Source: Escherichia phage UGJNEcP3
Length of the DNA stretch: 64,000 nt
Sequence record: OV876907
Direction: 5' to 3' (one strand)
In this document: in pieces, positions 4,145-64,000 of the stretch
Numbering within the stretch: the stretch's first letter is position 1
Layout: each line of letters opens with the position of its first letter
Program-made: the position numbers and the translations under genes
Notes under the pieces: model-generated
What the model was told of the DNA's origin: nothing
Databases searched by the model: none
The model's input: the letters and a program-made list of their open reading frames with translations, nothing else

Positions 4145-4666
4145 TTAATAACCACGGTCCTGACGAGCAAAGTTCTCGGCATTTTTCAGATAATACAGTT
4201 TAAAGATTTCTTCTGCAGTAAGTCCAAGACCCTGGAACATATTCAGAACAAAGTGCAGAATATCAATCATTTCGAATTTAATTTCGAGTTGGTCTTCAGG
4301 AGACAACTCGTCGATACGACGATTACGGAATTCAGCATGCTGAGCTTTCCAAGGCTTCCACACACTAGAGGCTGCTTTTTCACCGTTGGACATACCGCCA
4401 AGAGAAGTCAGCAGTTCACGGAATTCATCGTCAATATAATCTTTCTGGTTGCGAAGCCAATCGACGACTTGACCTGCGGTAGCCAGTTCATCAGGATTAG
4501 AGTTGAATTCTGATTTTTCGGTAGCCAGGCGAACCTGTAAAGATTTCTGCATATCAAGCATAACTTGCAGAGGGTCTTTATCTTCATGAATCAGAGCATT
4601 AAAATAAGCTTCCTCAGCTTTATCAACACCAGAAATCAAACCACTACATTCGTTAAAAAATGCCAT
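4145..4666 (-). CDS. 56: dCTP pyrophosphatase (gene 56-like, MazG family)
   Basis: 173 aa, size and position as T4 gp56; all-alpha MazG-like sequence character. Confidence 0.7.
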   Translation of the reverse strand: MAFFNECSGLISGVDKAEEAYFNALIHEDKDPLQVMLDMQKSLQVRLATEKSEFNSNPDELATAGQVVDWLRNQKDYIDDEFRELLTSLGGMSNGEKAASSVWKPWKAQHAEFRNRRIDELSPEDQLEIKFEMIDILHFVLNMFQGLGLTAEEIFKLYYLKNAENFARQDRGY

Positions 4667-12404: not shown

Positions 12405-13298
12405 TTAAAGGACCACGTCCTCATAACTTGGCATTTCGTGCTCAGAATGGATATGGGCACCGAAATAAATGAATTCAGCTAGACCAGGATGGAATACTAA
12501 ACCAGGATTCTCGTGATAAATGATATGAGGTCTTGATTTCAGAATCTGATAATATTCAACCTTACTAGGTTTGAATTTAATAATCTCTACATCAGGACGA
12601 TAGTCTTCACGTTTAAATGAATCATTCGGGTCGGTGATATAAAGGCGAGAACCTTCAGCTGCAGCTTGGTCTACAACTCTTTCGAATTGATAACATTTAT
12701 CAGAGATACGGAATGGATGGAAAATACCATCAATTTTAATAGGCGCTAGACCTTCAGAGTAACGCTCAATTACTGCGGGATTAATTACCTTTTGGTCTAC
12801 AAAAATCTTATCAGAGGACGCACCTCGTGACACCAGGACGTCTTTCTGGCATTGATTCAGGACTGTAGTATAAATCGAACGTTCAACTGAGGACACGTCG
12901 GTATCAATAAACTCGTCGATATAATAACGAGGAACTTCAGGGTCCATTGTAATGTTAAAGTTGAATTGTACAGTCTGAGTGCCATCATAACCTGTGATAT
13001 CGGTTACTAATCCTGAGCAGTCATAGTATTCGATTAACGAATCAACAACGAACTCGTTTTCAGACCAAAAATGTTTACGAGTTTCATAAGCATTTTCTTT
13101 ATACCAAAGCGGTACAAAATTCAGTTCAGGAAATAATTCAATGCATTCTTTGATATCGCTCGAATTTCTAGGATAAGCCAGATAATCACCTGGGCAAGCA
13201 CGGTTTAAATGGAGTTGAAAATTACCGTCCTTAAGGACGGCATATTCACCTGTTTCGTAACTACGCATACTGAAAATAGGAACGATAAACAGACTCAT
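12405..13298 (-). CDS. hypothetical protein in the beta-glucosyltransferase slot; candidate DNA-base transferase
   Basis: 297 aa; sits where T4 beta-gt lies (between uvsX and 42); no resemblance to T4 beta-gt seen by eye; ATGA overlap with gene 42 homolog. Confidence 0.5.
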   Translation of the reverse strand: MSLFIVPIFSMRSYETGEYAVLKDGNFQLHLNRACPGDYLAYPRNSSDIKECIELFPELNFVPLWYKENAYETRKHFWSENEFVVDSLIEYYDCSGLVTDITGYDGTQTVQFNFNITMDPEVPRYYIDEFIDTDVSSVERSIYTTVLNQCQKDVLVSRGASSDKIFVDQKVINPAVIERYSEGLAPIKIDGIFHPFRISDKCYQFERVVDQAAAEGSRLYITDPNDSFKREDYRPDVEIIKFKPSKVEYYQILKSRPHIIYHENPGLVFHPGLAEFIYFGAHIHSEHEMPSYEDVVL

Positions 13299-13993
13299 TT
13301 CAGGAATCCTCGAACATAGTCAAAATCACGTTCAAATACATGTGCACTAACCATAGTATGGGAATACGTACCCAGACCAACACCACACTGTTCAGCAATA
13401 AAGGCCATCAGTTTACCCTGCAGATAGAAATCCAGCTGCATAACGATAGCACAGTTCTGTGAACGCATATGAGTGTGTGCATACAGACGTCCATCACGAA
13501 TATAATATGTCACCGAATCGGTACAAGGATATTCTAAGGATTCGTCAGAATCAAGGAGGGCTTGGTCTTGTTCTTGGAGAATCTGGAACACAACTCTTCT
13601 TGAGTTAGGCTTCTCTTTAAGCTCTTTAAGTAAGGCTGGGAGTTGGGCCACAATTCGAGGTCCATAGAAAGTGTTGAAGTTTGCAGGCAATACGTCACTT
13701 TTCGGCTTATCAATGAACTTAGCAACATTAGGGTATTCCTTAAATGCTTCGGCGGCGTCAGTACCACCGGAAATCATAAACTTCCAGAAAGATTCGGCAT
13801 AATCATAGTTGATACGATTAATACGAGGGTCGGTGAATTTATAGGTGCTTGCATCCAGAACTTCAACTGAAGCCGAACCAATTTCATAACAACGACCGAT
13901 ACGAGAATCAACTGCAAACTGTGGAGCTTCCAGGATTTCTTCGTTCATTTGTTTAAATGCATTTTCAAAACTAACAGCGGTAATGTGTTTCAT
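13295..13993 (-). CDS. 42: deoxynucleotide hydroxymethylase (gene 42-like, thymidylate-synthase fold), divergent
   Basis: PNSRRVVFQ, PCTDSVTYYIRD (catalytic Cys), MRSQN...LD motifs; far more divergent from T4 than flanking core genes. Confidence 0.7.
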   Translation of the reverse strand: MKHITAVSFENAFKQMNEEILEAPQFAVDSRIGRCYEIGSASVEVLDASTYKFTDPRINRINYDYAESFWKFMISGGTDAAEAFKEYPNVAKFIDKPKSDVLPANFNTFYGPRIVAQLPALLKELKEKPNSRRVVFQILQEQDQALLDSDESLEYPCTDSVTYYIRDGRLYAHTHMRSQNCAIVMQLDFYLQGKLMAFIAEQCGVGLGTYSHTMVSAHVFERDFDYVRGFLK

Positions 13994-14526
13994 TTATTCA
14001 CCTCATAATTAATGTATTCATTAAGACGTTTTAATTCTACCATATCGACGTTAAGCAAGTTATTATGGCCGTCGTGATTTAAGATTTTAAACACGTTTTC
14101 AAAACATGTTTCATATTGGCGGATAGTTAGGTTGAACTCATCTTTAGTCAGTTTAATGAGGTCATCTTCAAAGTCTTTATCCAACGGATTACGGGTTAAA
14201 ATAACCTCAATGATATTGAATTCTTTTTTGAAATCAATCCAATCTGCTAGTTCTACATAAGGGTCCATTTCACCACGAAGGAATCCCGAGTAAACAATAT
14301 TACTAGGATAACCACGGTCTAGGATGTAAACGAAATTAGGGTCTAAAAACTTATACAACGTCTCGACTAAAGCCTTGTCATTATCAGTTCCTAACGAAAT
14401 ACATTTACCATTAATCTTTTTAGGAAAATCAATAAGACGATATTTCTTATCAGATAAAAGGGTTTCGATTAAAGTAGACTTCCCGGAATTATCCGGGCCG
14501 TCTATAACAATGATTTTTGGATTCAT
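13990..14526 (-). CDS. P-loop kinase (nucleotide/nucleoside-kinase-like)
   Basis: Walker A VIDGPDNSGKSTL near N-terminus; later DRGY motif; 178 aa. Confidence 0.55.
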   Translation of the reverse strand: MNPKIIVIDGPDNSGKSTLIETLLSDKKYRLIDFPKKINGKCISLGTDNDKALVETLYKFLDPNFVYILDRGYPSNIVYSGFLRGEMDPYVELADWIDFKKEFNIIEVILTRNPLDKDFEDDLIKLTKDEFNLTIRQYETCFENVFKILNHDGHNNLLNVDMVELKRLNEYINYEVNK

Positions 14527-14897
14527 GGATGATAGGCCTTATAACTATCAAGAGTTCCTTCGCGAACCATTTCTTTAAAGTGGTCAGGACGAATTGCTCG
14601 GTCATCGATGATAAAAGTATAACTCGGCTTGTGTGTAAGCAAATTGTGATATTTCAATCCAATTTTTTCAAGGTTCTTAACCAATGCAGGAACTACTTCA
14701 ACCAAGATTCGGCCTGGGCCGCATGAAGTCATACCACGGGCAGTGAACAATGTAATCTCATGACCTTCATCGTACAGCTTATTAATCATGGACACCATTT
14801 CGGTGTCCGGTTTAAAGTTTTCATAATCACGGTCATCTTGCCAGTGAGTAATGGTATTATCGATGTCAAAGCACAAATGCATTAAATTTTCTTCCAT
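14523..14897 (-). CDS. HAD-superfamily phosphatase-like protein
   Basis: N-terminal motif I LCFDIDNTIT (DxDxT); 124 aa. Confidence 0.5.
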   Translation of the reverse strand: MEENLMHLCFDIDNTITHWQDDRDYENFKPDTEMVSMINKLYDEGHEITLFTARGMTSCGPGRILVEVVPALVKNLEKIGLKYHNLLTHKPSYTFIIDDRAIRPDHFKEMVREGTLDSYKAYHP

Positions 14898-16555
14898 TGT
14901 TTGTGGAGTTCAGTAGAACCTGTAGGTTTATATTTTACACCAGTTTCCTGGTCAAGCAAAACCCACTTATCAGGGCATCGAGTGATAATTTGGGCCGTAA
15001 TAGGGTCACGAACTTCATCGACAAATTCACCTGTAATAAGCTTACGCTTACGAGGATGCCGCTTCAGCAGCACACTCAGTTGATATAGACCGTTGTAATA
15101 AGCGCCCAGAGCTTTCAGAGGGTTATTTTTAAAGTAACCTGCCAACGCCATCCAGATAACAGCAATCCAGAGCTTGTGCTTAAATGTACACATTGGAATA
15201 TCATCTAAAGGCATAACCTTTTCAATATCAACGAATACTCGAGTTCCATTACGAGTTAAGCCACCCCATAGAGGGTCAGAGTTAAATTTGTCATAACCAT
15301 CGATAGAATAAAGCACCTTAGCTTCATCATAAATCGCAGGGCCTTTAGAACTATTACCAAAATAACCGCGTGGGTCGATGATTTTAATATCACCTTCGTC
15401 CGACAGCATAATATTACTGTAGTGCGGGTCGCCGTGAATAAGTTGGTACGGTTCTTTATGTTCAGACAGAATTTCTAGTGCATGACGAAGAAGTTTTTCT
15501 GGGTCGCCTACCTTAAAGTCATTGACATGGGTAATGCCCTGTGGAGCAAAGCCTTCAATCAATCCAGCAATAGAAGCATTACGAATAAGGACCTTGTCCA
15601 ATACTTCTTTCTTAACATCGGAATACCATTGCTCATCGGATGGATTATCGATAGTTCCACCAAATGAACGTAATGCACTAATGACCTTATAAACCATGAG
15701 GACTTTAGTTTCTTTAGACATAAACCGATAGGCATCTGCCATGGTGCGACCAAAGATACGTTCCATTTTAATGAATTCACCTGGAGCAAAGTCTACAATG
15801 CTCGGAACAAATTCAGAATCAATAGAATTATACCAATTGATTTCTTTAGATTGGATTTCTTTACCTAATTCGTTGGTAGGTACTTTAATAGCCAGATTCT
15901 CAGTGAACTCTAATTTATTAAATTCACGGTTAATTTCAGAATCTTCATGGGCCTTAGCCAGTTTCAATTTGTCACCGACATCAACTACAAAGTCCAGCTT
16001 ACGTTCGGTCAAATGGACCATCGAATCTAGGTTATCAGCAAGGTCTTCGCCATAATTAGAACGGTTGAAGCCTGTCCAATTAGCCACCTGATACAAACCA
16101 ACCACACCACCGCCAGTACCAATTTCACGCAAGTACGGTTCTTCAAATGTAAAACGACAGTCAGTCCCGTAGGTATAGCAATAGTCGTTATCCCACTCAA
16201 CTTTATGACCCTCAGGAATGATGTCACACCAGTTAAACAAGACGTTATGGCCAATGATATCTTCAGCAATGCAATCGATAGCATGAGCTGAACCATTAGC
16301 CACATCTACGTTACGAATAGTGAATTTAGGCTTATCACTATTAATCATGTTAATGGATTTAATATAGCCTTTAACGAGGTCGTTAAATTTGCTGTGAATA
16401 ACCAGAATAATTTCATCTGATTGGTTACTATACAAATCATACAAATGTTTTAATACAGTATGTTGTTTGTAGTTAACCAATACCTTCGGGATTTCGTTAG
16501 TAATTGGATACAACCGTGAGCCAAGACCCGCGCCTAAAATAACAACCTTTTTCAT
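14882..16555 (-). CDS. bifunctional nucleotidyltransferase / APH-family (sugar- or choline-type) kinase
   Basis: N-terminal VILGAGLGSRLYPIT...PK (NDP-sugar pyrophosphorylase signature); C-terminal LIHGDPHYSNIML and IIDPRG (Brenner phosphotransferase motif); ATG 16555 with SD GAGGAA. Confidence 0.65.
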   Translation of the reverse strand: MKKVVILGAGLGSRLYPITNEIPKVLVNYKQHTVLKHLYDLYSNQSDEIILVIHSKFNDLVKGYIKSINMINSDKPKFTIRNVDVANGSAHAIDCIAEDIIGHNVLFNWCDIIPEGHKVEWDNDYCYTYGTDCRFTFEEPYLREIGTGGGVVGLYQVANWTGFNRSNYGEDLADNLDSMVHLTERKLDFVVDVGDKLKLAKAHEDSEINREFNKLEFTENLAIKVPTNELGKEIQSKEINWYNSIDSEFVPSIVDFAPGEFIKMERIFGRTMADAYRFMSKETKVLMVYKVISALRSFGGTIDNPSDEQWYSDVKKEVLDKVLIRNASIAGLIEGFAPQGITHVNDFKVGDPEKLLRHALEILSEHKEPYQLIHGDPHYSNIMLSDEGDIKIIDPRGYFGNSSKGPAIYDEAKVLYSIDGYDKFNSDPLWGGLTRNGTRVFVDIEKVMPLDDIPMCTFKHKLWIAVIWMALAGYFKNNPLKALGAYYNGLYQLSVLLKRHPRKRKLITGEFVDEVRDPITAQIITRCPDKWVLLDQETGVKYKPTGSTELHKQWKKI

Positions 16556-16615: not shown

Positions 16616-17116
16616 TTAAATCTTATCTTTACCGATTTCAATACACTGTTCTATTGCCGCCGGTACTTTGGTCTTGAGCTTATCGATTTGTTTCTTATAA
16701 TCACGAGCTTTACCGAAGCTCTCGGTTTCGAGCATTTCGTAATAACGAGCCTCGTGGATGGAAATCTGTAGATTGATATGGTTTACGCACATCGCATACA
16801 GTTTCTGCTTTTTGTACAAATCATCTTGGCGCTTCATTTCTGCCTGGTGTTTGGCTAGTACCGCTTCACGCTTAGACTCTTGTTCACGTTGGAATTCGAT
16901 TTCCCTTTGAGCATATTTTGCACAGTTATTACCACATTGATTATTAGCTCGGGTATACACAAGTCCAGAACCGGCACGGAATTTCATTTCGCCATCGAAT
17001 TGTTTCTGTTCAGCTGCGATACGAGCTTTACCAACTTCATCGGCTGAAACTGCATCACCATATTGGACCGCACAACCTGATAGGAGCATACTCATTGCGA
17101 TAATTAACTTTTTCAT
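16616..17116 (-). CDS. lipoprotein (signal MKKLIIAMSMLLSGC)
   Basis: lipobox LSGC; coiled-coil-rich mature part. Confidence 0.5.
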   Translation of the reverse strand: MKKLIIAMSMLLSGCAVQYGDAVSADEVGKARIAAEQKQFDGEMKFRAGSGLVYTRANNQCGNNCAKYAQREIEFQREQESKREAVLAKHQAEMKRQDDLYKKQKLYAMCVNHINLQISIHEARYYEMLETESFGKARDYKKQIDKLKTKVPAAIEQCIEIGKDKI

Positions 17117-17123: not shown

Positions 17124-17261
17124 TCAATTAAAACAGTTATACTTAATTTGTGCTATAAGAATAATCCATCCTATGATTAATGTCGGAATCATTGGCGGAA
17201 TTGCCACTGCCCAATAAACGGTAAAGGCAGCCATTATAAGAAATAAAATAATTATCTTCAT
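17124..17261 (-). CDS. small hydrophobic protein (45 aa)
   Basis: ATGA overlap with imm stop; below ORF-track cut-off. Confidence 0.25.
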   Translation of the reverse strand: MKIIILFLIMAAFTVYWAVAIPPMIPTLIIGWIILIAQIKYNCFN

Positions 17262-23714: not shown

Positions 23715-23906
23715 TTAATCAAAGTACTCGTAGACAAACCATGCCGGATTTCTATTTGACATGATTTTATCATATTCTGACTTAAAAGCATTTCGGAGAT
23801 ATTCTTCAGTAACAAGATGCTCATCTCCAGAGAAGTTGTTAACTAAAACGTATCTCTTTATTTCTGGAAAGGCCAACAAATGCTGGCCTGTTATAAAATC
23901 ACTCAT
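23715..23906 (-). CDS. hypothetical protein (63 aa)
   Basis: ORF on dominant strand. Confidence 0.35.
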   Translation of the reverse strand: MSDFITGQHLLAFPEIKRYVLVNNFSGDEHLVTEEYLRNAFKSEYDKIMSNRNPAWFVYEYFD

Positions 23907-24589
23907 TATGAAGCATCCTTTAATTTACAATTATCAAAGTGCCATCGTTTCATAATGTTGTTAGAGCCAATTTTATCACAATATGGGCACTTTACAGTTG
24001 GTCTGCTTTTAGCTTTTGCAGATTGTTTGCTTTTCATAGCCTGTTTTGCTTCGTCAGACCTAGAATTAAGGGCTATAGAAATTTTATCCCTTGTTTCTTG
24101 GCTATGAGTTTTTCCGAACATAGGGTTGTTCTCAGGCAAATATGTACCATTTCTTATATTACTCTGACGAATTTTTTCTATATGTTCTTTAGATTTATTT
24201 CTTAGCTCTAGGCATTTAGATTTCTTTCTAGTTTTAAAAAGGTTTTCATAAAATGAATACGGTCTATTTTTAGCAGCTATACTCTGTTTAAGTCTGGTTT
24301 CCTCTTTTATAAAAGGTGCGGCATTACCTCCTAAAGAAATATTATATGTAAGAGGGTTCTTTATAAATTCCTCATTGACTATAATTCTTTCCATTTGGAT
24401 AGCCTCTTCTCTGGTATCAAAATTATAAAGTATTTCCTTTCTATGATTTTCCAAACCATATTTTTTAATAGAAGCTTTAATATATAAACCAGAGCCCATA
24501 TACGAATCTTTAATATTTTCAGTACTATGTATCCCTACATAGTACTTATTATTAACTAAATTTATTATTTTGTAAACAAGATGTCTCAT
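23906..24589 (-). CDS. GIY-YIG homing endonuclease (Seg-like)
   Basis: N-terminal YKIINLVNNKYYVGIHS...YMGSG...R...E...NISLGGN; basic C-terminal DNA-binding region; free-standing between 45 and 46. Confidence 0.65.
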   Translation of the reverse strand: MRHLVYKIINLVNNKYYVGIHSTENIKDSYMGSGLYIKASIKKYGLENHRKEILYNFDTREEAIQMERIIVNEEFIKNPLTYNISLGGNAAPFIKEETRLKQSIAAKNRPYSFYENLFKTRKKSKCLELRNKSKEHIEKIRQSNIRNGTYLPENNPMFGKTHSQETRDKISIALNSRSDEAKQAMKSKQSAKAKSRPTVKCPYCDKIGSNNIMKRWHFDNCKLKDAS

Positions 24590-31382: not shown

Positions 31383-31614
31383 AATTTAATTTCCTTAGCT
31401 ATCGAACAAAATACACCACGGTCACAAATCATTTTAATATTAAGGTCAATTATGGTATACCACACGTCTAGGCTAGATATTTCAGTTACTAGAACAGCTT
31501 TGCCGTTGATTGAATAATACTGGTTGACTTTAATTTCTTTATCTTGGATAGTCATAATGTTCTCCTCATGTGTTGATAGGATAGACTATAACACGTGAGG
31601 AGAGGAAGTAAACA

Positions 31615-31932
31615 CTAATCTTCAATTAAATCTCGGTCATAGCCAAGCTCAATCAAAAGGGATTTGAAGGCAGGAATATTTTCTATTTTCTTATTATCAA
31701 CAAAGATTACAGGATAGCGTATAGCTAAGCTCTTGAAGCCGGCACGTTTGGCCAATGATACTATAAGAGGCTTGTCATATACTGCGCCTGACGGCGTCTG
31801 GTTAATCACAGGATAGAAAGTATGTGGGATAGAAAGGGAATTTAGGAGCGATAGAACTGCAATGCACCCTGGACAGCGCATGACTGCCTCAGGGATACCG
31901 TAAATCTCAATTTTAGTTAACTTTTGGTCCAC
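31615..31932 (-). CDS. glutaredoxin/thioredoxin-like protein (CPGC motif)
   Basis: KIEIYGIPEAVMRCPGC; probable GTG start at 31932 with SD AAGGAG 9 nt upstream; track start further upstream. Confidence 0.4.
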   Translation of the reverse strand: MDQKLTKIEIYGIPEAVMRCPGCIAVLSLLNSLSIPHTFYPVINQTPSGAVYDKPLIVSLAKRAGFKSLAIRYPVIFVDNKKIENIPAFKSLLIELGYDRDLIED

Positions 31933-32209
31933 AGGAAATAACTCCTTGGTAGTCCCAAGTTTTGATAACTTCGTCTTCATTAGTTCCGTATGGGACGTAA
32001 ATCTGGATAAGGAAACCCGTGTCATCAAAAGAGAAATAAACCGTTGGTTTAATACCATGAATCTCTGACAGAGCATAGATGTCCTTAAGGTCGTCTTCCT
32101 TACCTTTAAAGAATTCAGGGTTCAGGTCACAGTCATGGAAGTACCAGTCATTACCGAACTTGTCCCATGCGGTCCAATTCAAAGCTACATACTCTTCAAA
32201 ACGTTTCAT
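31913..32209 (-). CDS. hypothetical protein (98 aa)
   Basis: ORF. Confidence 0.4.
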   Translation of the reverse strand: MKRFEEYVALNWTAWDKFGNDWYFHDCDLNPEFFKGKEDDLKDIYALSEIHGIKPTVYFSFDDTGFLIQIYVPYGTNEDEVIKTWDYQGVISCGPKVN

Positions 32210-32433
32210 TCTTTCACCTTCATCATTTTAGAAATAACACTATGAACAGCCTGGATTCGTTTGTCGAACTCAGTCCCTTCAAGACCCTTTTCAGTACTCA
32301 ATGCACCAATAATAACGAACAGCACTCCAAATGGGATAACCAGGATTAAAAGGCACACAATAAACAGGACAAATGTAATATTGGCCAGGATATCAGAAGC
32401 AGCATTACGAAATTTATTCATACGATAGTCCAT
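32206..32433 (-). CDS. small membrane protein (75 aa)
   Basis: long hydrophobic segment. Confidence 0.4.
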   Translation of the reverse strand: MDYRMNKFRNAASDILANITFVLFIVCLLILVIPFGVLFVIIGALSTEKGLEGTEFDKRIQAVHSVISKMMKVKE

Positions 32434-32527
32434 GTATTAGTTACAACAAATAACCATTGAGCAGGATACTCAACACCCATGCGCCGGATAATATCGTTCA
32501 TAGATTCGGTTAAGGCATAAAAATTAA

Positions 32528-33001
32528 TCATTTAAGCGATTTCCTCAGTTGTTTTTTAAATGAATCGACCATTTGTTTCTTTGTGTCAGATTCATTATAA
32601 GTCATTCCGTGTGAAAGCATTTCAGCAATCATTTCTTCCTTACCTAATCTACTGAACTCTTTGGTTTTATCAGGAACGAAATTAGGATGGATATTGTTTT
32701 CAGTATAATCAGATTTCAGATAGACAAGCAAATTCTCTAACCATTCGAGGTAGTCAACGTTTTGACCTTTAAGACCAGAGCGGTTAAACTTATGCTTCAT
32801 TTGTCCTTCTGCGGCATTACACAGGTTGCATAGTAACCCACGAACCTTACCAGCTTTTGGCCCGTTTAATTCGTGGTCATGGTCAAGGTGGTTGCTTTGA
32901 ACATCAGGGTTTAATTCACGGGTACAGATTAAACACTTACCATCCTGTGCATCATAAAGTTTTTGTTTTTCTTCTTTGTATAATTTACCAGTCAACAACA
33001 T
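32528..33001 (-). CDS. 49: endonuclease VII (gene 49, Holliday-junction resolvase)
   Basis: 157 aa; MLLTGKLYKEEKQK...CLICTRELNP...HLDHDHELNGPKAGKVRGLLCNLCNAAEG... near-identical to T4 gp49 as recalled. Confidence 0.9.
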   Translation of the reverse strand: MLLTGKLYKEEKQKLYDAQDGKCLICTRELNPDVQSNHLDHDHELNGPKAGKVRGLLCNLCNAAEGQMKHKFNRSGLKGQNVDYLEWLENLLVYLKSDYTENNIHPNFVPDKTKEFSRLGKEEMIAEMLSHGMTYNESDTKKQMVDSFKKQLRKSLK

Positions 33002-34889: not shown

Positions 34890-35097
34890 TATCTTCTCGC
34901 TCAAATTTATGTTTGCAATGTCGGCATTTGTAACGAAGATTACTAGACTGCCAATGGACCAGTTGGACTTGTTCGGTTCCGCATTCCGGACAGTTAGGAA
35001 CATTCTTGGAAGCTTGTTCACGGCGATGAACCATAGCCATCACAGCATCCCAATCAGGAATAGTTTGGTCAATATCGTCAGCTAATTGATATTTCAT
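34876..35097 (-). CDS. zinc-ribbon protein (73 aa)
   Basis: CPECG...CRHCKH. Confidence 0.4.
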
Positions 35098-36104
35098 TTC
35101 AACAGCTCCAGAGCTTGTTCAAGGCGGTCTAAACGATTAGTAGACTCTTCCCAAAGTTTCTTGGCAGCAGTATATTGTCCAGTCAGTTTTTTGTTAATAG
35201 CAAGGGCGTCTTTATACGCTTTTTCCAGAGCAACGACTTCTGGTAACTTGGATTTAGTAATTGGTGTAGGGACCATGATAGGGCTGTTCAAGTCGTTAAT
35301 CAAGTCTTCTAATGTAGCAGGCTCTTTATCAGTATTCACAATTTCCTCACATTTTTCTTGGTAAATTTCAGCATCGGTTTTTGGAACATGACATTTGATT
35401 TCACGGACTGTTACTAAAACTTCATATCCTTTCCAGCCTAAGTGGTGTTTAACTTCTTGGGTCTCATATTTCTCTACGGTATCCATCAGAGCTAAAGCCT
35501 GTTCGATAGTATTCAAGGTATCGTAAGCAATATCTTGATACTTTACAACTTCTGGCTCATCTTTAGGTTTCCGGTTTGGTGACCAGATAACGGAAATAAG
35601 CACCTTTCCTTTATAGGCGTTTGTTTTAATCATGCAATTTGCCATAGGATGAATGGTGCGGCTATCACCAGCAACTACTGTTTTAGTGGCGGCTTTGAGG
35701 ATTAATGCAGAGTTAGCCTTGAATTCAGCGGCCCAACGTTGTGGAAATAAACTACTAGGGTCCATACCTTTAATTTTGACATAACCTTTTATGGTATCGC
35801 CAAACCATTTGTAGCTAACAACATGGCTAGAACCAGGATATTTCTCTCTACCAAACTCAGAAAGGATGTCCTTATTGACCAGCCGCGAAAGCAGTCGAGA
35901 ACCTTTAAATGTATCTACGATATCATTAATAAACAAGCGACCCGCGATCTTTTCGATTTCAGCTTTGAAACAGCGCGATAATGCATCATCAATTTGGTCG
36001 ACCCATTTATTGATATTAGAAACTATTACCACATATGGGGTTAATGGAGGGGTATTGGCAGTGATATACGTAGTAAAGGCATTGATGTATTCGGTACGAG
36101 TCAT
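35094..36104 (-). CDS. hypothetical protein (336 aa)
   Basis: large ORF; no motif recognised. Confidence 0.5.
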   Translation of the reverse strand: MTRTEYINAFTTYITANTPPLTPYVVIVSNINKWVDQIDDALSRCFKAEIEKIAGRLFINDIVDTFKGSRLLSRLVNKDILSEFGREKYPGSSHVVSYKWFGDTIKGYVKIKGMDPSSLFPQRWAAEFKANSALILKAATKTVVAGDSRTIHPMANCMIKTNAYKGKVLISVIWSPNRKPKDEPEVVKYQDIAYDTLNTIEQALALMDTVEKYETQEVKHHLGWKGYEVLVTVREIKCHVPKTDAEIYQEKCEEIVNTDKEPATLEDLINDLNSPIMVPTPITKSKLPEVVALEKAYKDALAINKKLTGQYTAAKKLWEESTNRLDRLEQALELLK

Positions 36105-36161: not shown

Positions 36162-37067
36162 TTATTTTAGAGCTAATACTGCAGCGCGAAGCTTATCACG
36201 TTGGAGTTCCATGTTCTTGATGCGAATCAATACGTCTTGAATGCTCTTTTTCTCATCTTCAATCTGACCATTTAAACGGTGGATTGATTCCTGAATGCTA
36301 TCTGCATAATAGGTCTCAATAGGTTTCATCGTAGGGTTAGTAACAACCAAAGAATTATCAGGTTTAATTTTCCAATGATATGGTTCGGAATTGAATGGAC
36401 TAGGCACAGCAGTGGTTTTGAATTTGTCATAGGCTGCATACTGGGCTACACTGTCACATGATACTGTAGAGGTAGCGATAGATATACGACGTTCCATTTG
36501 TGGGTCCTTTTGTTGGGATTGATAAGGGGCATAAGACAAAAGATATTCACGAGTTAGTTTAACATTAAAATACACCGCATCAGCCCGTCCAGAACAATCA
36601 GCATATTCATCGGTTGTAACTTTATATGATTCTACGGCCTTAATACGAGTCATTGCTTCTCTGAATAAGGTTTCGAATGCTTCACGAAGGGCCTTATTAC
36701 CTTTTGAGGTAGGACGGAAACGAACTTGAATACCGTCAGCCAGAATATTAATGACTAGGTTACGAGCCGTAAAATTAATACTTTTGATATTAACAGGAAC
36801 CGTAGAAATACGTCCTGCGGTAGCCAAGAGGTCTTTGATATTAGCCCGCAATGTTGCACCAAACAGGTGGGCTGGGCAACGGCAATAATCGTTCAAAGAA
36901 CCGATATAAGTTCCTTTACGTCCTACACCATAAGTATAATTACCATTACGAATATAGCCAAAGTCGGCTAGCCGATCGATAGCGATACGACGAGTCGTGT
37001 CATGGTCGTATATAGAGTATTCTTTACGTGTTTTAATGTTCATATTAAAGTCCAAATAATTTTTCAT
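36162..37067 (-). CDS. hypothetical protein (301 aa)
   Basis: large ORF; no motif recognised. Confidence 0.5.
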   Translation of the reverse strand: MKNYLDFNMNIKTRKEYSIYDHDTTRRIAIDRLADFGYIRNGNYTYGVGRKGTYIGSLNDYCRCPAHLFGATLRANIKDLLATAGRISTVPVNIKSINFTARNLVINILADGIQVRFRPTSKGNKALREAFETLFREAMTRIKAVESYKVTTDEYADCSGRADAVYFNVKLTREYLLSYAPYQSQQKDPQMERRISIATSTVSCDSVAQYAAYDKFKTTAVPSPFNSEPYHWKIKPDNSLVVTNPTMKPIETYYADSIQESIHRLNGQIEDEKKSIQDVLIRIKNMELQRDKLRAAVLALK

Positions 37068-37245
37068 AGAATTTAGCGATTGGCCAGGTTATAATAAAAA
37101 CTATCCCAAACATAACAAGAACTGGCCAGATAAAGGTGGCAAACACTGCTTCACCACCTGAGTTAATTTCCATATGATTACGACCAATAAGGACAGTAAT
37201 GAATCCTAATGCAAGGTACAGAAGAATAAAACCTGCGATTTCCAT
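37045..37245 (-). CDS. small membrane protein (66 aa)
   Basis: two hydrophobic segments. Confidence 0.4.
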   Translation of the reverse strand: MEIAGFILLYLALGFITVLIGRNHMEINSGGEAVFATFIWPVLVMFGIVFIITWPIAKFYEKLFGL

Positions 37246-37247: not shown

Positions 37248-38093
37248 TTAATCCTTAAGAAGATTTAAAATATCTGTATATTTCCTACGTTCAGCCTTAG
37301 CTTTAGCGTTCAGACCAGAGAGTCGGAAAATCTCATCATCTTGTTGTTGGATTGTAACATTCAAGCAAGTAAGCAAATTGCTAAAATACTCGATTTGAGC
37401 TTGATGCTTCTCATTGCTGCGCACTGGTACAGGTTCTGGTTTAGGAGCTTGTTCTGAAGGCTCTTCAGCCAGGTCTTTAATTTTATAAAGTTTAATACGC
37501 TGACCCACTCCAGTTTCGGCATCACCGAAACTAAGAACACCATGCTGTTCTAATTCAGACAGGGCCAAGCGCAGATGGAACTTCCAGTTGTCGTATTGAC
37601 ACCCACTGTAATGGGAAATAGTATACTCATTTTCATTTCCTGGGTGGTTAACAATATTAAAGATAATCCAATCACCTGAGCCATTGGTCTTAAAGGTCAT
37701 TTGTTTATCAAGACCTTTTGCAAGGCGAGCGCCAAGAGCCAGTAGACGTCGTTGGTTGGCATTAAGGTCTTGAACAACTTCGTCAAATGACATCGCCGGG
37801 ATTAAACGACCATAAAGGTCGTAGCCTTTGTTATAATTTTTAAGAATAATTTTGGCATTAGCACGAGACAACATACCTGTTTTACGAAGAGTTTTCATGA
37901 CCCGGTCTTCTAAGGTAAAAGACCCTTTGGTCTTTTCAAAGATTTTAGTGAAGTCATCTTTAACAGTACAAACATTGAACTTGTCCCACATCATATATAG
38001 AACCTTTTCAACTACTTCTTTAGAACTCGGAATACGACCAAATTTAATAACTTTTTTAACTTCAGAACGAATTTGATTAATTGCCTGTGACAT
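37248..38093 (-). CDS. hypothetical protein (281 aa)
   Basis: ORF. Confidence 0.5.
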   Translation of the reverse strand: MSQAINQIRSEVKKVIKFGRIPSSKEVVEKVLYMMWDKFNVCTVKDDFTKIFEKTKGSFTLEDRVMKTLRKTGMLSRANAKIILKNYNKGYDLYGRLIPAMSFDEVVQDLNANQRRLLALGARLAKGLDKQMTFKTNGSGDWIIFNIVNHPGNENEYTISHYSGCQYDNWKFHLRLALSELEQHGVLSFGDAETGVGQRIKLYKIKDLAEEPSEQAPKPEPVPVRSNEKHQAQIEYFSNLLTCLNVTIQQQDDEIFRLSGLNAKAKAERRKYTDILNLLKD

Positions 38094-39090: not shown

Positions 39091-40146
39091 TTATTTCAGA
39101 AGTGTAACTTCAGCGATTTCGCTCCAGTCATTTTTATCGGTGGCAATGAAATCCGCCAGATAAAGAGCTGTACGTAATGATACGTTACGAAGACGAGATA
39201 CATTAGCCTTCATCCAGGACAGTGCTTGATAAGTCTCGGCATCAGTCAGACCACGGTTTTGCATCATATCAGTGGACAGGATAACGTCTTCAACACGAAC
39301 CATAATCTCTTCGTTAGAGTGAACTCCGAGGTCTAAGTAAACTGAACGAGATACTAAAGCCTGGAGGTGTGGAGCAAGTTTAGTTCCACGCTCTAATTCA
39401 CGGTCAATATCAACGTTGGTGATGAACACGATGGTGCCTTCGTATTCGAATTCTTTATCGATATTTTTATCATCAAGGTAAGAACTTGAAGTGCTCCAGC
39501 ACACCTTACGTTTTTCACCGGTATCCAATGCTGCTTTTAACAGGTTCAGGATATCCATATCAGAGAATACATCAACATCATCAATAAGAAGAACACTATT
39601 AGGGCCGCGGTTATTCCAAAGCTGCTCGTAAAGACCGATTCCACTAATCTTTCCGTTGATTGATTTATATTCGATAGTTTCATTTTCGTGGGCATTTTGT
39701 AATGCTTTATCCAAAGAGTACGTTTTACCAATACCTGCTGCACCAGAGATGATAAGGGAACGAATTTTACCATCGATGATTCCATTAGTCATCATATTCA
39801 TTACTTTAAAACGTTTGTTGATGCGGTGTTTCATTTCATCCTGGGATTCAGTTACGACTACAGGAGATTCAGTACCTTCCATTTCGATGTCACATTTGAA
39901 CACCCATACACCACGTTCAACACCATCAATCTGTACAAATACCTTGCCATCACCGAGATGAGCTTCGGATTCATGAATTTTATTAGGGAACCAGGTTTTA
40001 CCTGAACTCATGAACGTACCAGAGATTTCATTACCGCGATAGATGCCTTTGTTGATTTTGATAGTTAACATTTTATTCTCCATTTCACTCAGTAGATTTG
40101 ATAGGTCCATAATAACATGCTCTACGAGGTTGTAAACACTTTTTTG
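39091..40146 (-). CDS. AAA-type P-loop ATPase
   Basis: Walker A ISGAAGIGKTYSL, Walker B VLLIDDVD; start at second ATG of ATGGAGAATAAAATG leader. Confidence 0.55.
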   Translation of the reverse strand, partial: QKSVYNLVEHVIMDLSNLLSEMENKMLTIKINKGIYRGNEISGTFMSSGKTWFPNKIHESEAHLGDGKVFVQIDGVERGVWVFKCDIEMEGTESPVVVTESQDEMKHRINKRFKVMNMMTNGIIDGKIRSLIISGAAGIGKTYSLDKALQNAHENETIEYKSINGKISGIGLYEQLWNNRGPNSVLLIDDVDVFSDMDILNLLKAALDTGEKRKVCWSTSSSYLDDKNIDKEFEYEGTIVFITNVDIDRELERGTKLAPHLQALVSRSVYLDLGVHSNEEIMVRVEDVILSTDMMQNRGLTDAETYQALSWMKANVSRLRNVSLRTALYLADFIATDKNDWSEIAEVTLLK

Positions 40147-40187
40147 CACTAGACCCAAAAAAGGACCCTTCTGGGTCCTAAATTTAG

Positions 40188-41186
40188 TTATCGATAATAG
40201 GCGTTGTGGTTGTCAAGATAAACCTCTTCAACAAATTTGTCCCAGAAGCTCATGTCTACCTTATCAGGCATACCGTTCTTGGCGGCCCAGATAGCATTTG
40301 TTTCGACTTCATCAACGATTGATTCAAGCTCAGCTTGGACATCTTTAAAAGCGTGTAGACCCTGCTTGATTTCCAGGATAAACGGAGCAGTTCTTAAAGG
40401 GTACTTTAAGTCACCAGTCATATAAATTTCTTTCAACTGATAACCAGCACGATAAGCATGACTCAGAGCTTTCCAGTCAATACCTTCATTAGCTTCGGCC
40501 TTACGAGCACGTTCACCATATTCAGCGTCCAGTTTGTTCAGAGACTGCTTAAGCTCGATAAGAGAAAGCGTTGTCTGATATTTTCGACCCAACACAGTGT
40601 AGAATGTTTGTGGACCTGTTTTCTCGTGATTGTGGAATACCCATTCGCAGAATTCGTTCTCTGGGAGTCGATGTTTAATATCTTCTACCTTAGTACGACG
40701 TTGTTTAGTTGAACCATCTTCTTGATAATCGACCCATTGTTCAGGAATCTGGTTGACGATTGCCAGTACACCACGCAGAGCAGCCAGACGAGAACCTTTA
40801 ACACCATATTTAGAAGCTTGCTTACGGACGTACCCTAAATAGGCTTTCATGTTAGTCGTATAGAACCGAGAACGGTTATCTTGGATAAATTTCCATACAT
40901 CAGGTAAATCGGATTTAACCACCATTTCAGGCGGAGTATGGAGCATATCCAGAGCAACGGTTTCGCCTTCAGCCGCTAGTTTAAAGAAATATTTCAGACT
41001 GTAAAGCTCATGGTCAACATCATCTTTAGTGTTTTTGGACGCAGTGTTATTCGTGTTCAGGTTGGTATGGTTCATTGCCGTACCCAACAGAATATCACGC
41101 GGATGTGGAACAAAGATTTCTTTAAAATCGACATCAGATTCCGGAGTACTTGTTCCATAAAGATGGCTACCGAAGTAGCCTTTCAT
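40188..41186 (-). CDS. Pol-beta-superfamily nucleotidyltransferase-like protein
   Basis: N-terminal GSHLYGTSTPESDVDF (GS-x10-DxD); start at second ATG (41186). Confidence 0.45.
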   Translation of the reverse strand: MKGYFGSHLYGTSTPESDVDFKEIFVPHPRDILLGTAMNHTNLNTNNTASKNTKDDVDHELYSLKYFFKLAAEGETVALDMLHTPPEMVVKSDLPDVWKFIQDNRSRFYTTNMKAYLGYVRKQASKYGVKGSRLAALRGVLAIVNQIPEQWVDYQEDGSTKQRRTKVEDIKHRLPENEFCEWVFHNHEKTGPQTFYTVLGRKYQTTLSLIELKQSLNKLDAEYGERARKAEANEGIDWKALSHAYRAGYQLKEIYMTGDLKYPLRTAPFILEIKQGLHAFKDVQAELESIVDEVETNAIWAAKNGMPDKVDMSFWDKFVEEVYLDNHNAYYR

Positions 41187-44056: not shown

Positions 44057-44629
44057 TCAACTCGTTATTTCTATCCAGTGCTTCCTGCACAATGACACGT
44101 AAGAATCGTTGCCACCTATAGAAACTTGGGCTCCGTCCTTAATTGCGACACCATCTTGGACCCTAGCAGTCATAGTAGCTTTACGGCCGCAATGGCACAC
44201 ACCTTTGTACTCAACGAGTTTATCTGCCGTAGCGAGTAATTCAGCAGAACCAGGAAACAGTTTACCCTGAAAATCAGTTCTTAGCCCATAACACATAACT
44301 GGAACATTATAATTGTCTACTATCTTTGCCAGTTGTTTTATCTGTGCAGGTTCTAAGAATTGTGCTTCATCCACAAACACACAGTGGATATCTTTTTGAG
44401 ATTCAGCCCAACGATAGAACTCGTATAGGTCCATATCTGGAGTCACCCCATTAGCCTCTTGACTAATCCCTATACGAGACGAAATGGTATGGCTTGATTC
44501 TCTATTATCTATCGCAGGCTTTAAAAGGAGTACGCCCATACCGCGTTCTTTGTAGTTATGAGCTGCCGTTAGCAATGAAGCGGTCTTACCGGAATTCATT
44601 GCTGCATAATGAAAATAAAGTTGGGCCAT
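44057..44629 (-). CDS. tk: thymidine kinase
   Basis: Walker A AAMNSGKTASLL; C-terminal zinc-binding CHCGRKAT...C; 190 aa. Confidence 0.85.
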   Translation of the reverse strand: MAQLYFHYAAMNSGKTASLLTAAHNYKERGMGVLLLKPAIDNRESSHTISSRIGISQEANGVTPDMDLYEFYRWAESQKDIHCVFVDEAQFLEPAQIKQLAKIVDNYNVPVMCYGLRTDFQGKLFPGSAELLATADKLVEYKGVCHCGRKATMTARVQDGVAIKDGAQVSIGGNDSYVSLCRKHWIEITS

Positions 44630-44798
44630 ATTACCTTCTTAAAGACTATTTACATAAGCAATTAATTCATTTTCCTTTTTAGAAAACTCATCCTCTTCGT
44701 CACCTCTCCAGTCCCAATCCAGAGAGTTATCAAATTCACATTCTGTGTTGAGTTCCATAAGCTCATGGATAAGCTCAAACAATTTATCTTTCTGCTCT

Positions 44799-63427: not shown

Positions 63428-63435
<8 letters not shown>

Positions 63436-64000
63436 TTTTATTTCCTAATAATTTATCAATAGTAGTGTATAGTTCAGAAAGAGTGCCGTTATTTTCAACA
63501 ACAACGTCACCAGGTAAAATTGGTAGACCCGCTTCAGTGATGTGCGAGTCTTGTACTTGACCGGTTTCAGCGCGAACTACATGAATAATCGTAGCACCCA
63601 TCGCTCTGAGTGAATCAATTTCGTGTGTTTGACGAACATCAGGTACGACATAGTATTTCGCATCAGAGTATATTTTATCAAAATAGTCTAAAGCGAACAA
63701 CTTAACCCAATACATCTTATCAAATTGGTTAACAATAATATCAGTCCCAAGGGTCTGCATGAGACGACGTACTGACCAATTGTTATTTTTATTTATTACT
63801 TCAAATAGCTGGTCTTTTGTTTCTTCAGACAGATATTGGACCGGGGTAAGACCGTAATGATATGCGGTAAGAACATCAATTCCTGGAATAGGAAGGATAT
63901 TATTCAGTTTAACAATAGCATGTTCAAAAATATCAACCACATCATACGGTTTTAAAGGAAGGGTTTCTTCACGGTCGTAACCGATACCTTCAAAACAATT
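63428..64000 (-). CDS. 1: dNMP kinase (gene 1), 5'-truncated by window edge
   Basis: ...NWSVRRLMQTLGTDIIVNQFDKMYWVKLFALDYFDK...VPDVRQTHEIDSLRAMGATIIHVVR...HITEAGLP... matches C-terminal two-thirds of T4 gp1; frame stays open to position 64000. Confidence 0.8.

What the first reader, a model, noticed from the sequence alone, without database searches (positions are those of the whole stretch)
12405..16555. Five-gene DNA-modification module occupies the beta-glucosyltransferase slot
Between uvsX and imm/43, where T4 carries beta-gt and gene 42, this phage has five overlapping genes: an unknown 297-aa protein, a gene-42-like hydroxymethylase, a P-loop kinase, a HAD phosphatase and a fused nucleotidyltransferase/APH-type kinase. 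The flanking genes (41, uvsX, 43) look very T4-like, so the module appears swapped in as a unit. Its domain content would allow a phage to make its own activated donor (NDP-sugar or CDP-alcohol) and attach it to 5-hydroxymethyl-pyrimidine DNA, so I infer a non-glucose DNA hypermodification. This is the strongest candidate for an undescribed system in the window.
Basis: partly seen in the sequence, partly recalled or inferred. Interest (0 to 1): 0.92.

Follow-up and report, generated by a model that had tools for sequence, protein, structure and literature searches.

The report
Arabinosyl-5-hydroxycytosine DNA modification gene cluster

Summary
The five overlapping minus-strand genes at 12405-16555 are real. 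The window is 100% identical to Escherichia phage UGJNEcP4 (genus Dhakavirus). All five genes are homologues of the RB69 gp45-gp53 cluster, now known to make arabinosylated 5-hydroxycytosine (Lee et al., NAR 2026, PMC13326640).

- **232 aa:** not a gene-42 hydroxymethylase. It is 79% identical to RB69 gp48, an experimentally shown 5-hydroxy-dCMP synthase, and carries the published diagnostic D169N signature (Asn180).
- **297 aa ("unknown"):** a compact GT-B glycosyltransferase, the RB69 gp46:47 homologue.
- **178 aa:** a thymidylate-kinase-like kinase.
- **124 aa:** an AfhF-type HAD phosphatase.
- **557 aa:** an AfhE-type fused nucleotidyltransferase and sugar kinase that makes UDP-arabinofuranose.

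The phage genome has no arabinose-5-phosphate isomerase, U32-like gene or second transferase. This is therefore the minimal core, and it probably gives mono-arabinosylation using host arabinose-5-phosphate.

It was wrong about the acceptor base, and the system is no longer undescribed. Lee et al. already list Dhakaviruses by synteny, but I found no chemistry on their DNA. I rate it a new member of a known kind, of low interest.

The parts
12405..13298 (-). 297-aa compact GT-B glycosyltransferase. It is the predicted first (base-proximal) arabinosyltransferase acting on 5-hydroxycytosine, and the homologue of RB69 gp47+gp46 (one gene, split in RB69 by a sequencing error).
13295..13993 (-). 232-aa thymidylate-synthase-fold 5-hydroxy-dCMP synthase, predicted to be a flavin- and O2-dependent dCMP C5-hydroxylase. 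It is not a hydroxymethylase.
   Evidence: 78.8% identity to RB69 gp48. PDB 9IQU/9IQC/9IR2 at 1.5e-125, against 4.7e-6 for T4 gp42 (1B5E). Alignment A1: Cys157 = ThyA C146, Glu154 = L143E, Asp188 = N177D, Asn180 = D169N. Activity and signature were shown for the RB69 and DLP3 enzymes in PMC13326640.
13990..14526 (-). 178-aa thymidylate-kinase-like P-loop nucleotide kinase, the RB69 gp45 homologue. Its substrate is unknown.
14523..14897 (-). 119/124-aa HAD phosphatase of AfhF type, predicted to act as an arabinose-1,5-bisphosphate 5-phosphatase. The annotated start is 14882; an alternative upstream ATG lies at 14897.
   Evidence: 61.5% identity to RB69 gp51. PDB 9IQW at 3.7e-53 and 1xpj at 1.3e-11. 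TIGR01689 capsule-biosynthesis phosphatase at 5.5e-14, below its cutoff. DIDNT motif at 11-15 and DD at 98-99. GenBank and PHROG label it 'phosphoheptose isomerase', which is a misnomer.
14882..16555 (-). 557-aa AfhE-type bifunctional enzyme. The N-terminal domain is a sugar-1-phosphate nucleotidyltransferase and the C-terminal domain is an APH-fold sugar-phosphate kinase. It is predicted to take arabinose-5-P to arabinose-1,5-bisP and arabinose-1-P to UDP-arabinofuranose.
   Evidence: Pfam NTP_transferase 2.5e-8 (residues 13-110 of the 567-aa ORF) and APH 1.3e-5 (356-427). 44% and 41% identity to RB69 gp53 and gp52 over the full length; 80% to phage Marfa. GAGLGSR 8-14, HGDPHYSN 374-381 and IDPRG 393-397. 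phrog_4098, 3.6e-269. Homologues in 367 phage records.
16556..16600 (-). Upstream control region of the module: a TATAAT box (16589-16584) and a GAGGA ribosome-binding site (16567-16563) before the ATG at 16555.
   Evidence: Read directly from the sequence. The generic promoter scan did not score it, so this is a weak lead only.
4145..4666 (-). gp56 dCTPase/dUTPase, which supplies dCMP and removes dCTP. It is an accessory step of the pathway, encoded outside the module.
   Evidence: 94% identity to RB69 gp56. Annotated as nucleoside triphosphate pyrophosphohydrolase.
63428..64000 (-). gp1 dNMP kinase, cut by the window end. The RB69 homologue phosphorylates 5-hydroxy-dCMP to the diphosphate. 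It is an accessory step.
   Evidence: Annotated as deoxynucleoside monophosphate kinase at record 76066-76827, which is window 63428-64189. Activity of the RB69 homologue is reported in PMC13326640.

Best explanation
The module is the minimal five-gene core of the arabinosyl-5-hydroxycytosine (ara-5hoC) DNA hypermodification system of T4-like phages.

**Base arm**
1. gp56 dCTPase turns dCTP into dCMP.
2. The 232-aa TS-fold enzyme hydroxylates C5 of dCMP with O2 and a flavin, using the conserved catalytic Cys157, to give 5-hydroxy-dCMP.
3. The phage dNMP kinase (gp1) and host NDP kinase raise it to the triphosphate.
4. gp43 polymerase builds DNA in which 5-hydroxycytosine replaces cytosine.

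**Sugar arm**
1. Arabinose-5-phosphate comes from the host KdsD/GutQ isomerases, because this phage has no isomerase of its own.
2. The C-terminal kinase domain of the 557-aa AfhE-like protein phosphorylates it at C1.
3. The HAD phosphatase (AfhF-like) removes the 5-phosphate.
4. The N-terminal nucleotidyltransferase domain of AfhE makes UDP-arabinofuranose.

**Transfer.** The 297-aa GT-B enzyme puts one arabinofuranose on the 5-OH, giving an ether-linked sugar directly on the ring. With only one transferase in the genome, the expected product is mono-arabinosyl-5hoC.

**Kinase.** The TMK-like kinase is a conserved fifth core member whose substrate has not been established.

**Shown elsewhere for homologues:** the hydroxylase activity, the gp1 kinase step, the AfhE and AfhF activities (as reported by Lee et al. 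for phage HY126), and arabinosyl-5hoC in RB69, DLP3 and NP DNA.

**Inferred here:** that this phage does the same, that the sugar count is one, that it depends on host arabinose-5-P, and what the 297-aa and 178-aa proteins do.
For: - **Homology.** All five proteins are homologues of the RB69 cluster, at 79, about 66, 61, about 42 and 37% identity, in the same uvsX-gp43 slot.
- **TS homologue.** It carries all four published determinants, C146, L143E, N177D and D169N (PMC13326640). It matches PDB 9IQU at 1.5e-125.
- **HAD.** It matches PDB 9IQW at 3.7e-53.
- **Kinase.** It folds as a thymidylate kinase.
- **AfhE-like protein.** It has both domains and their catalytic motifs.
- **Accessory steps.** The dCTPase is 94% identical to RB69's.
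- **No glucosyl route.** There is no alpha- or beta-glucosyltransferase in the genome.
- **Selection.** dN/dS is 0.00-0.09.
- **Literature.** Lee et al. list Dhakaviruses as cluster carriers by synteny.
- **Precedent for the minimal content.** Shewanella phage Thanatos has the same core genes plus a U32-like gene. It has no isomerase in the 35 kb I examined and a single GT, and it is reported as mono-arabinosylated.
Against: - I found no chemical analysis of any Dhakavirus DNA in the searchable literature.
- The sugar-arm proteins are only 37-61% identical to the characterised RB69/HY126-type alleles, and there is no phage isomerase. The identity of the sugar is therefore inferred.
- Lee et al. 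could not get any single purified transferase to arabinosylate 5hoC-DNA in vitro. They state that they cannot tell whether the first sugar goes onto the nucleotide or onto DNA.
- The Thanatos paper assigns the 300-aa homologue (TH1_063) a UDP-xylose pyrophosphorylase activity rather than a transferase role.
- I could not read He et al. 2026 or Mahler et al. 2025, so the AfhE and AfhF activities are second-hand.
Confidence: 0.8

Rival explanations
1. One reading: the TS homologue is a gene-42-type dCMP hydroxymethylase, and the module attaches a non-glucose group to 5-hydroxymethylcytosine. This is also the 2018 reading of RB69.
For: The protein belongs to the thymidylate synthase family and keeps the dCMP-specifying Asp (N177D) and the L143E change that it shares with T4 gp42. 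RB69 was originally reported as arabosyl-hmC (PMC6024577).
Against: It has Asn180 at the D169 position where T4 gp42 has Asp. It is 79% identical to RB69 gp48, which makes 5-hydroxy-dC with 18O2 incorporation. Identity to T4 gp42 is only about 25%. The hmC assignment for RB69 has been explicitly corrected.
Confidence: 0.04
2. Same architecture, different sugar. The Dhakavirus/Marfavirus-type sugar arm is a divergent AfhE, HAD and kinase set with no phage isomerase. It would activate a pentose other than D-arabinofuranose, for example from ribose-5-P or another abundant host sugar phosphate, giving a different glycosyl-5hoC.
For: AfhE, HAD and the kinase are 80-86% identical to phage Marfa but only 42, 61 and 37% identical to RB69, although the polymerase shows the opposite pattern (68% against 83%). 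The records carrying this AfhE allele are the ones that lack an arabinose-5-P isomerase: 367 records have AfhE and 276 have the isomerase, none of them Klebsiella phages. Lee et al. stress that 5hoC carries different sugars in different phages, such as hexoses in RL38J1.
Against: The transferase that must recognise the donor is equally similar in all three lineages (66-68%). E. coli makes arabinose-5-P constitutively for Kdo synthesis (established knowledge of KdsD/GutQ). Thanatos shows no isomerase in the 35 kb examined yet is reported as arabinosylated. The catalytic motifs are all conserved.
Confidence: 0.1
3. Pre-replicative glycosylation. The GT-B enzyme arabinosylates 5-hydroxy-dCMP rather than DNA. 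The TMK-like kinase then phosphorylates the bulky arabinosyl nucleotide that gp1 cannot handle, so the sugar enters DNA through the polymerase.
For: A TMK-like kinase is conserved in every cluster examined (RB69, DLP3, Marfa, Thanatos and this window), although the phages also have gp1, which already phosphorylates 5ho-dCMP. In RB69, DLP3 and Thanatos the kinase gene sits next to the first GT. Purified single GTs did not act on 5hoC-DNA, and the authors leave the question open.
Against: All characterised phage DNA glycosylations are post-replicative, as with T4 alpha- and beta-GT (established knowledge). The DLP3 second and third transferases act on DNA. In this window the kinase is not adjacent to the GT. 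There is no direct evidence either way.
Confidence: 0.15
4. The sugar genes are an auxiliary metabolic module for host capsule or LPS remodelling and are unrelated to DNA.
For: The HAD hits a 'capsule biosynthesis phosphatase' model (TIGR01689, 5.5e-14). PDB 9IQW is titled 'Capsule biosynthesis protein', and one homologue of the 557-aa protein is annotated as a capsular polysaccharide biosynthesis protein.
Against: The genes are translationally coupled to the dCMP hydroxylase and a nucleotide kinase, inside the replication gene block. According to Lee et al., the HY126 homologues were shown to make UDP-arabinose for DNA. The capsule labels are inherited family names, and the TIGR01689 score (52 bits) is far below the cutoff (162).
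Confidence: 0.01

Closest known systems
Escherichia phage RB69 (Mosigvirus) gp45-gp55 cytosine arabinosylation cluster (Lee et al., NAR 2026, PMC13326640; Thomas et al. 2018, PMC6024577)
   Same: It sits in the same uvsX-gp43 slot and has homologues of all five genes (79, about 66, 61, about 42 and 37% identity). It has the same TS signature (C146, L143E, N177D, D169N) and the same accessory dCTPase and dNMP kinase.
   Different: RB69 additionally has an arabinose-5-P isomerase (gp55), a U32-like protein (gp50), gp49 and a second transferase (gp3) elsewhere in the genome. Its DNA is mono- plus di-arabinosylated. None of those genes exists in this phage. The gene order also differs: the kinase is next to uvsX in RB69 and between TS and HAD here. 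The AfhE and kinase alleles are strongly diverged.
Phage HY126 Afh pathway (He et al., Nat Chem Biol 2026, as cited by Lee et al.; PDB 9IQC/9IQU/9IR2, 9IQW, 9IQZ)
   Same: The hydroxylase and the HAD phosphatase of this window match the solved structures at E = 1.5e-125 and 3.7e-53. The AfhE/AfhF logic (kinase, then phosphatase, then uridylyltransferase) fits the domain content here.
   Different: I link these PDB entries to HY126 only by adjacent accession codes and by the 9IQZ title. The paper itself was not readable. HY126 appears to be of the RB69 type. The 366-aa HY126 glycosyltransferase (9IQZ) resembles RB69 gp3 and has no sequence homologue here.
Klebsiella phage Marfa (Marfavirus) cluster
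   Same: It has the same gene order, gp43-AfhE-HAD-kinase-...-TS-GT. AfhE, HAD, kinase and TS are 80-86% identical to this window, and there is no arabinose-5-P isomerase next to the cluster.
   Different: Marfa has a U32 'peptidase'-like gene between the kinase and TS, 89% identical to RB69 gp50. Its polymerase is only 68% identical to this phage's. I found no DNA chemistry for it either.
Shewanella phage Thanatos-1 pentosyl-cytosine cluster (PMC12838424)
   Same: It has the same five core genes between gp43 and uvsX, a single 300-aa GT (51% identical) and no isomerase hit in the 35 kb examined. Lee et al. report it as mono-arabinosylated.
   Different: It also has a U32-like gene and a different gene order. 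Its authors assign the 300-aa protein a UDP-xylose pyrophosphorylase activity.
T4 glucosyl-hydroxymethylcytosine system (gp42, alpha-gt, beta-gt)
   Different: The base is hydroxymethyl in T4 and hydroxy here (Asp against Asn at the D169 position). The cofactor is folate in T4 and flavin/O2 here. The donor is host UDP-glucose in T4 and phage-made UDP-arabinofuranose here. There are no alpha- or beta-gt homologues here.

Membership tests
Arabinosyl-5-hydroxycytosine (ara-5hoC) hypermodification cluster of Straboviridae | TS-fold 5-hydroxy-dCMP synthase with catalytic Cys, dCMP-specifying Asp (N177D), L143E and the diagnostic D169N (E. coli ThyA numbering) | tested here: met
   Cys157, Asp188, Glu154 and Asn180 in alignment A1. 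T4 gp42 has Asp and E. coli ThyA has Asp at the D169 column. 78.8% identity to RB69 gp48; PDB 9IQU at 1.5e-125.
Arabinosyl-5-hydroxycytosine (ara-5hoC) hypermodification cluster of Straboviridae | AfhE-type fusion of a sugar-1-P nucleotidyltransferase domain and an APH-fold kinase domain | tested here: met
   Pfam NTP_transferase and APH in one 557-aa protein. GxGxxxR and HxDxxxxN...D motifs are present. Full-length homology to RB69 gp53+gp52.
Arabinosyl-5-hydroxycytosine (ara-5hoC) hypermodification cluster of Straboviridae | AfhF-type small HAD phosphatase | tested here: met
   PDB 9IQW at 3.7e-53. 61.5% identity to RB69 gp51. DxDxT and DD motifs present.
Arabinosyl-5-hydroxycytosine (ara-5hoC) hypermodification cluster of Straboviridae | Cluster-encoded compact GT-B transferase (RB69 gp46:47 / DLP3 gp79 type) | tested here: met
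Arabinosyl-5-hydroxycytosine (ara-5hoC) hypermodification cluster of Straboviridae | Cluster-encoded thymidylate-kinase-like nucleotide kinase | tested here: met
Arabinosyl-5-hydroxycytosine (ara-5hoC) hypermodification cluster of Straboviridae | Location between uvsX and DNA polymerase gp43, with gp56 dCTPase and gp1 dNMP kinase elsewhere in the genome | tested here: met
   Gene order. The dCTPase is 94% identical to RB69 gp56, and gp1 is annotated at the window end.
Arabinosyl-5-hydroxycytosine (ara-5hoC) hypermodification cluster of Straboviridae | Phage-encoded arabinose-5-phosphate isomerase (present in RB69 and DLP3, but not universal) | tested here: not met
   No tblastn or phmmer hit to RB69 gp55 in the 170,590-bp genome. 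It is also absent next to the Marfa cluster and from the 35 kb of Thanatos examined. I therefore treat it as accessory, not defining.
Arabinosyl-5-hydroxycytosine (ara-5hoC) hypermodification cluster of Straboviridae | Additional GT4 transferases for a second or third arabinose (RB69 gp3, DLP3 gp76/77) | tested here: not met
   No homologue of RB69 gp3 in the genome, and the GT-family profile finds only the 297-aa gene. The two large unannotated ORFs are nrdC.x homologues shared with T4-type phages. This predicts mono-arabosylation.
Arabinosyl-5-hydroxycytosine (ara-5hoC) hypermodification cluster of Straboviridae | Virion DNA in which cytosine is replaced by arabinosylated 5-hydroxycytosine | not testable with these tools
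   This needs nucleoside LC-MS or NMR. I found no such data for any Dhakavirus.
T4-type glucosyl-hydroxymethylcytosine system | gp42-type dCMP hydroxymethylase (Asp retained at the ThyA D169 position; close similarity to T4 gp42) | tested here: not met
   Asn180 replaces the Asp. Identity to T4 gp42 is about 25% over 159 aa, and PDB 1B5E scores only 4.7e-6.
T4-type glucosyl-hydroxymethylcytosine system | alpha- and/or beta-glucosyltransferase genes | tested here: not met
   No hit to T4 beta-gt in the genome. The gp47-gp55 interval, where T4 has alpha-gt, holds only small ORFs. An alpha-gt sequence query was not run.

The most novel reading that the evidence does not exclude
The Dhakavirus/Marfavirus-type sugar arm consists of AfhE, HAD and kinase alleles only 37-61% identical to the characterised ones. 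They are always linked and always lack a phage arabinose-5-P isomerase. This arm may not be a mere variant. It could either activate a different pentose, giving a new glycosyl-5-hydroxycytosine, or work with the TMK-like kinase to glycosylate at the nucleotide level before replication. The second case would be the first pre-replicative DNA glycosylation route.
Probability: 0.12. Interest if true: 0.6.

Novelty: new member of a known kind. Interest (0 to 1): 0.25.

Why it matters
This finding adds little new biology. It places a common genus of therapeutic E. coli phages (Bp7, JS98, IME08, WG01 and relatives; 51 database records at 90% identity or more) in the arabinosyl-5-hydroxycytosine class rather than the hmC class under which they are still annotated.

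That placement has practical consequences. It bears on which restriction enzymes, CRISPR nucleases, type IV systems and sequencing chemistries will work on these phages. It also means the database labels 'thymidylate synthase / dCMP hydroxymethylase' and 'phosphoheptose isomerase' are misleading.

The module has one useful property. It contains exactly the five genes shared by all clusters compared here (RB69, DLP3, Marfa, Thanatos), so it is a natural minimal system for reconstitution. It could also serve to test two questions that Lee et al. leave open: what the TMK-like kinase does, and whether the first sugar is added to the nucleotide or to DNA.

Tried and rejected
- **Unreadable sources.** He et al. 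2026 (Nat Chem Biol) is not held by DOI. Text searches did not surface He et al. or Mahler et al. 2025. No supplements of Lee et al. are held. Details of the Afh nomenclature and any Dhakavirus survey are therefore second-hand.
- **297-aa protein by sequence.** Pfam, NCBIfam and PDB sequence searches gave nothing. Only structure prediction identified it.
- **Accessory genes.** I looked across the whole 170.6-kb genome for an arabinose-5-P isomerase, a U32-like gp50, gp49, an RB69 gp3-type transferase and T4 beta-gt. There were no hits.
- **A hidden second transferase.** The large unannotated ORFs at 35094-36104 and 37248-38093 have no Pfam hits. They are nrdC.x homologues shared with glucosyl-hmC phages, so I rejected this idea.
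- **Foreign origin.** Module GC is 0.390 against 0.390 for the window, with no skew change. I rejected a recent foreign insertion.
- **Promoter and terminator scan.** It gave no more sites than shuffled sequence.
- **Capsule or LPS auxiliary-gene reading.** I considered and rejected it (see rivals).
- **Experimental data on Dhakavirus DNA.** I found none. Petrov et al. 2010 only noted that JS98 and RB69 have gene-42 and gene-56 homologues but no glucosyltransferases.

Full report
**What is there.** The window is 100% identical over the finding to Escherichia phage UGJNEcP4 (OV877765.1, genus Dhakavirus). Window position 1 corresponds to record position 12639. They overlap by 4, 4, 4 and 1 nt.

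The last gene most likely starts at 16555 and encodes 557 aa. That start has a GAGGA ribosome-binding site, and it matches the GenBank annotation and the RB69 gp53 start. The upstream ATG at 16585 lies inside a TATAAT box.

The flanks are uvsX on one side. On the other side are a 166-aa lipoprotein-like ORF, a 36-aa hydrophobic ORF, imm and gene 43. T4 has segA, beta-gt and gene 42 in this slot. The module's GC content (0.390) equals that of the window. All five genes are under strong purifying selection within the genus, with dN/dS of 0.00-0.09.

**What the genes are.** Every gene has a homologue in the RB69 gp45-gp53 region, which sits in the same uvsX-gp43 slot.

| Window gene | RB69 homologue | Identity to RB69 | Identity to Marfa |
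|---|---|---|---|
| 297 aa | gp47 + gp46 | 69% / 63% | 68% |
| 232 aa | gp48 | 78.8% | 85% |
| 178 aa | gp45 | 36.7% | 86% |
| 119/124 aa | gp51 | 61.5% | 83% |
| 557 aa | gp53 + gp52 | 44% / 41% | 80% |

gp47 and gp46 are one gene, split in RB69 by a sequencing error according to PMC13326640.

Lee et al. (NAR 2026, PMC13326640) showed that RB69 and Acinetobacter phage DLP3 DNA carry mono- and poly-arabinosylated 5-hydroxycytosine. It is not arabinosyl-hydroxymethylcytosine, as had been thought since 2018. They also showed that the TS homologue (RB69 gp48) makes 5-hydroxy-dCMP from dCMP with O2 and a flavin. Citing He et al. 2026 on phage HY126, they report two further activities:
- The fused enzyme (AfhE) phosphorylates arabinose-5-P and uridylylates arabinose-1-P.
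- The HAD (AfhF) removes the 5-phosphate.

**My own tests of each assignment.**
- **TS homologue.** Aligned with E. coli ThyA, T4 gp42 and RB69 gp48, it has Cys157 (C146), Glu154 (L143E), Asp188 (N177D) and Asn180 (D169N). T4 gp42 keeps Asp at the last position. D169N is the signature Lee et al. used to predict nine further 5-hydroxy-dCMP synthases, all of which were active. The protein matches PDB 9IQU/9IQC/9IR2 at 1.5e-125, but T4 gp42 only at 4.7e-6.
- **HAD.** It matches PDB 9IQW at 3.7e-53 and has the DxDxT and DD motifs.
- **557-aa protein.** It has NTP_transferase and APH domains with intact catalytic motifs.

**What is missing, and what that implies.** The complete 170.6-kb genome has no detectable homologue of several genes:
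- RB69 gp55 (arabinose-5-P isomerase).
- RB69 gp50 (U32-like) and gp49.
- RB69 gp3 (the second arabinosyltransferase).
- T4 beta-gt.

Two large unannotated ORFs in the window are nrdC.x homologues shared with T4-type phages, so they are not hidden transferases. The module is therefore exactly the set of five genes common to the RB69, DLP3, Marfa and Thanatos clusters.

I infer that arabinose-5-P comes from the host KdsD/GutQ isomerases, and that only one arabinose is added per base. The closest precedent is Shewanella phage Thanatos. It has one such GT and no isomerase in the 35 kb I examined, and Lee et al. describe it as mono-arabinosylated.

**Evolution.** The flanks are closer to RB69 than to T4. 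uvsX is 89.5% identical to RB69 against 66.6% to T4, and gp43 is 83.4% against 60.7%.

Inside the module the pattern is mosaic (table above). AfhE, HAD and the kinase are far closer to Klebsiella phage Marfa than to RB69, while the polymerase shows the opposite (68% to Marfa, 83% to RB69). Marfa has the same gene order plus a U32-like gene.

Across the phage database, 367 records carry an AfhE homologue and 276 carry the isomerase. The Dhakavirus, Klebsiella and some Proteus records with the Marfa-type AfhE allele account for most of the difference. So there are at least two allelic types of the sugar arm, and a sub-block has moved between lineages. The module was not dropped as a unit into a T4-like backbone.

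- Right: a non-glucose DNA hypermodification with a phage-made nucleotide-sugar donor.
- Wrong: the acceptor base, which is hydroxy rather than hydroxymethyl.
- Wrong: the 'unknown' protein, which is the transferase.
- Wrong: the T4-like flanks and the swap as a unit.
- Wrong: the claim that the system is undescribed. Lee et al. explicitly list Dhakaviruses among the genera with the syntenic cluster.

**What remains open.**
- I found no chemical analysis of Dhakavirus DNA.
- The substrate of the TMK-like kinase is unknown.
- Lee et al. could not show the first transfer in vitro, and they do not know whether it occurs on the nucleotide or on DNA.
- The Thanatos study assigns the 300-aa homologue a UDP-xylose pyrophosphorylase activity.
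- The divergent, isomerase-less sugar arm leaves a modest chance (about 0.1) of a different sugar or a pre-replicative route.

**Limits.** He et al. 2026 and Mahler et al. 2025 could not be read, so the AfhE and AfhF activities are second-hand. Linking PDB 9IQU and 9IQW to phage HY126 rests on adjacent accession codes and on the 9IQZ title.

Noticed in passing
window 16616-17116 (-): A 166-aa ORF with a lipoprotein-type signal peptide (MKKLIIAMSMLLSGC, a lipobox) lies between the modification module and imm. It has no Pfam or NCBIfam family and matches phrog_1754 'unknown' at 6.9e-52. Its position next to imm suggests a possible envelope or superinfection-exclusion role.
   Followed up: partly
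window 17124-17234 (-): An unannotated 36-aa hydrophobic ORF (MAAFTVYWAVAIPPMIPTLIIGWIILIAQIKYNCFN) is 56% identical to RB69 gp54. It is conserved beside the cluster in both phages. The GenBank record for UGJNEcP4 does not annotate it.
   Followed up: partly
window 12405-16555; GenBank OV877765.1 and RefSeq records of relatives: The database labels are misleading. The 5-hydroxy-dCMP synthase is called 'thymidylate synthase' or 'dCMP hydroxymethylase'. The HAD phosphatase is called 'phosphoheptose isomerase', inherited from phrog_1238. In some records a gene in this region is labelled 'RNA polymerase binding protein'.
   Followed up: yes
window 14523-16555 against L010 (Klebsiella phage Marfa) and L002 (RB69): The cluster is mosaic. 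The AfhE-HAD-kinase block is 80-86% identical to Marfavirus, while the neighbouring polymerase is 83% identical to RB69 and only 68% to Marfa. This indicates exchange of a sub-module between genera.
   Followed up: partly
window 39091-41186 (-): Two adjacent genes lie in the nrdC-region block. One is a 339-aa protein with AAA/STAND-like NTPase and C-terminal HTH hits. The other is a 332-aa RlaP-type (RNA-repair pathway, pol-beta family) nucleotidyltransferase. Their function was not examined.
   Followed up: no
window about 31600-32600 (record 44253-45639): No nrdD or nrdG (anaerobic ribonucleotide reductase) genes are annotated between the nrdH-like thioredoxin gene and endonuclease VII, where T4 and RB69 carry them. 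None is annotated anywhere in the record. This rests on annotation only and was not checked by search.
   Followed up: no
window 23906-24589 (-): A homing endonuclease gene is inserted between the gp45.2-like ORF and gene 46 (record 36544-37227). RB69 has no such gene there.
   Followed up: no
L011 (Shewanella phage Thanatos-1) 30460-31362: TH1_063 is the 300-aa homologue of the window's GT-B protein, at 51% identity. One paper reports it as a UDP-xylose pyrophosphorylase, and another treats it as the first DNA arabinosyltransferase. The two assignments conflict and the conflict is unresolved.
   Followed up: partly
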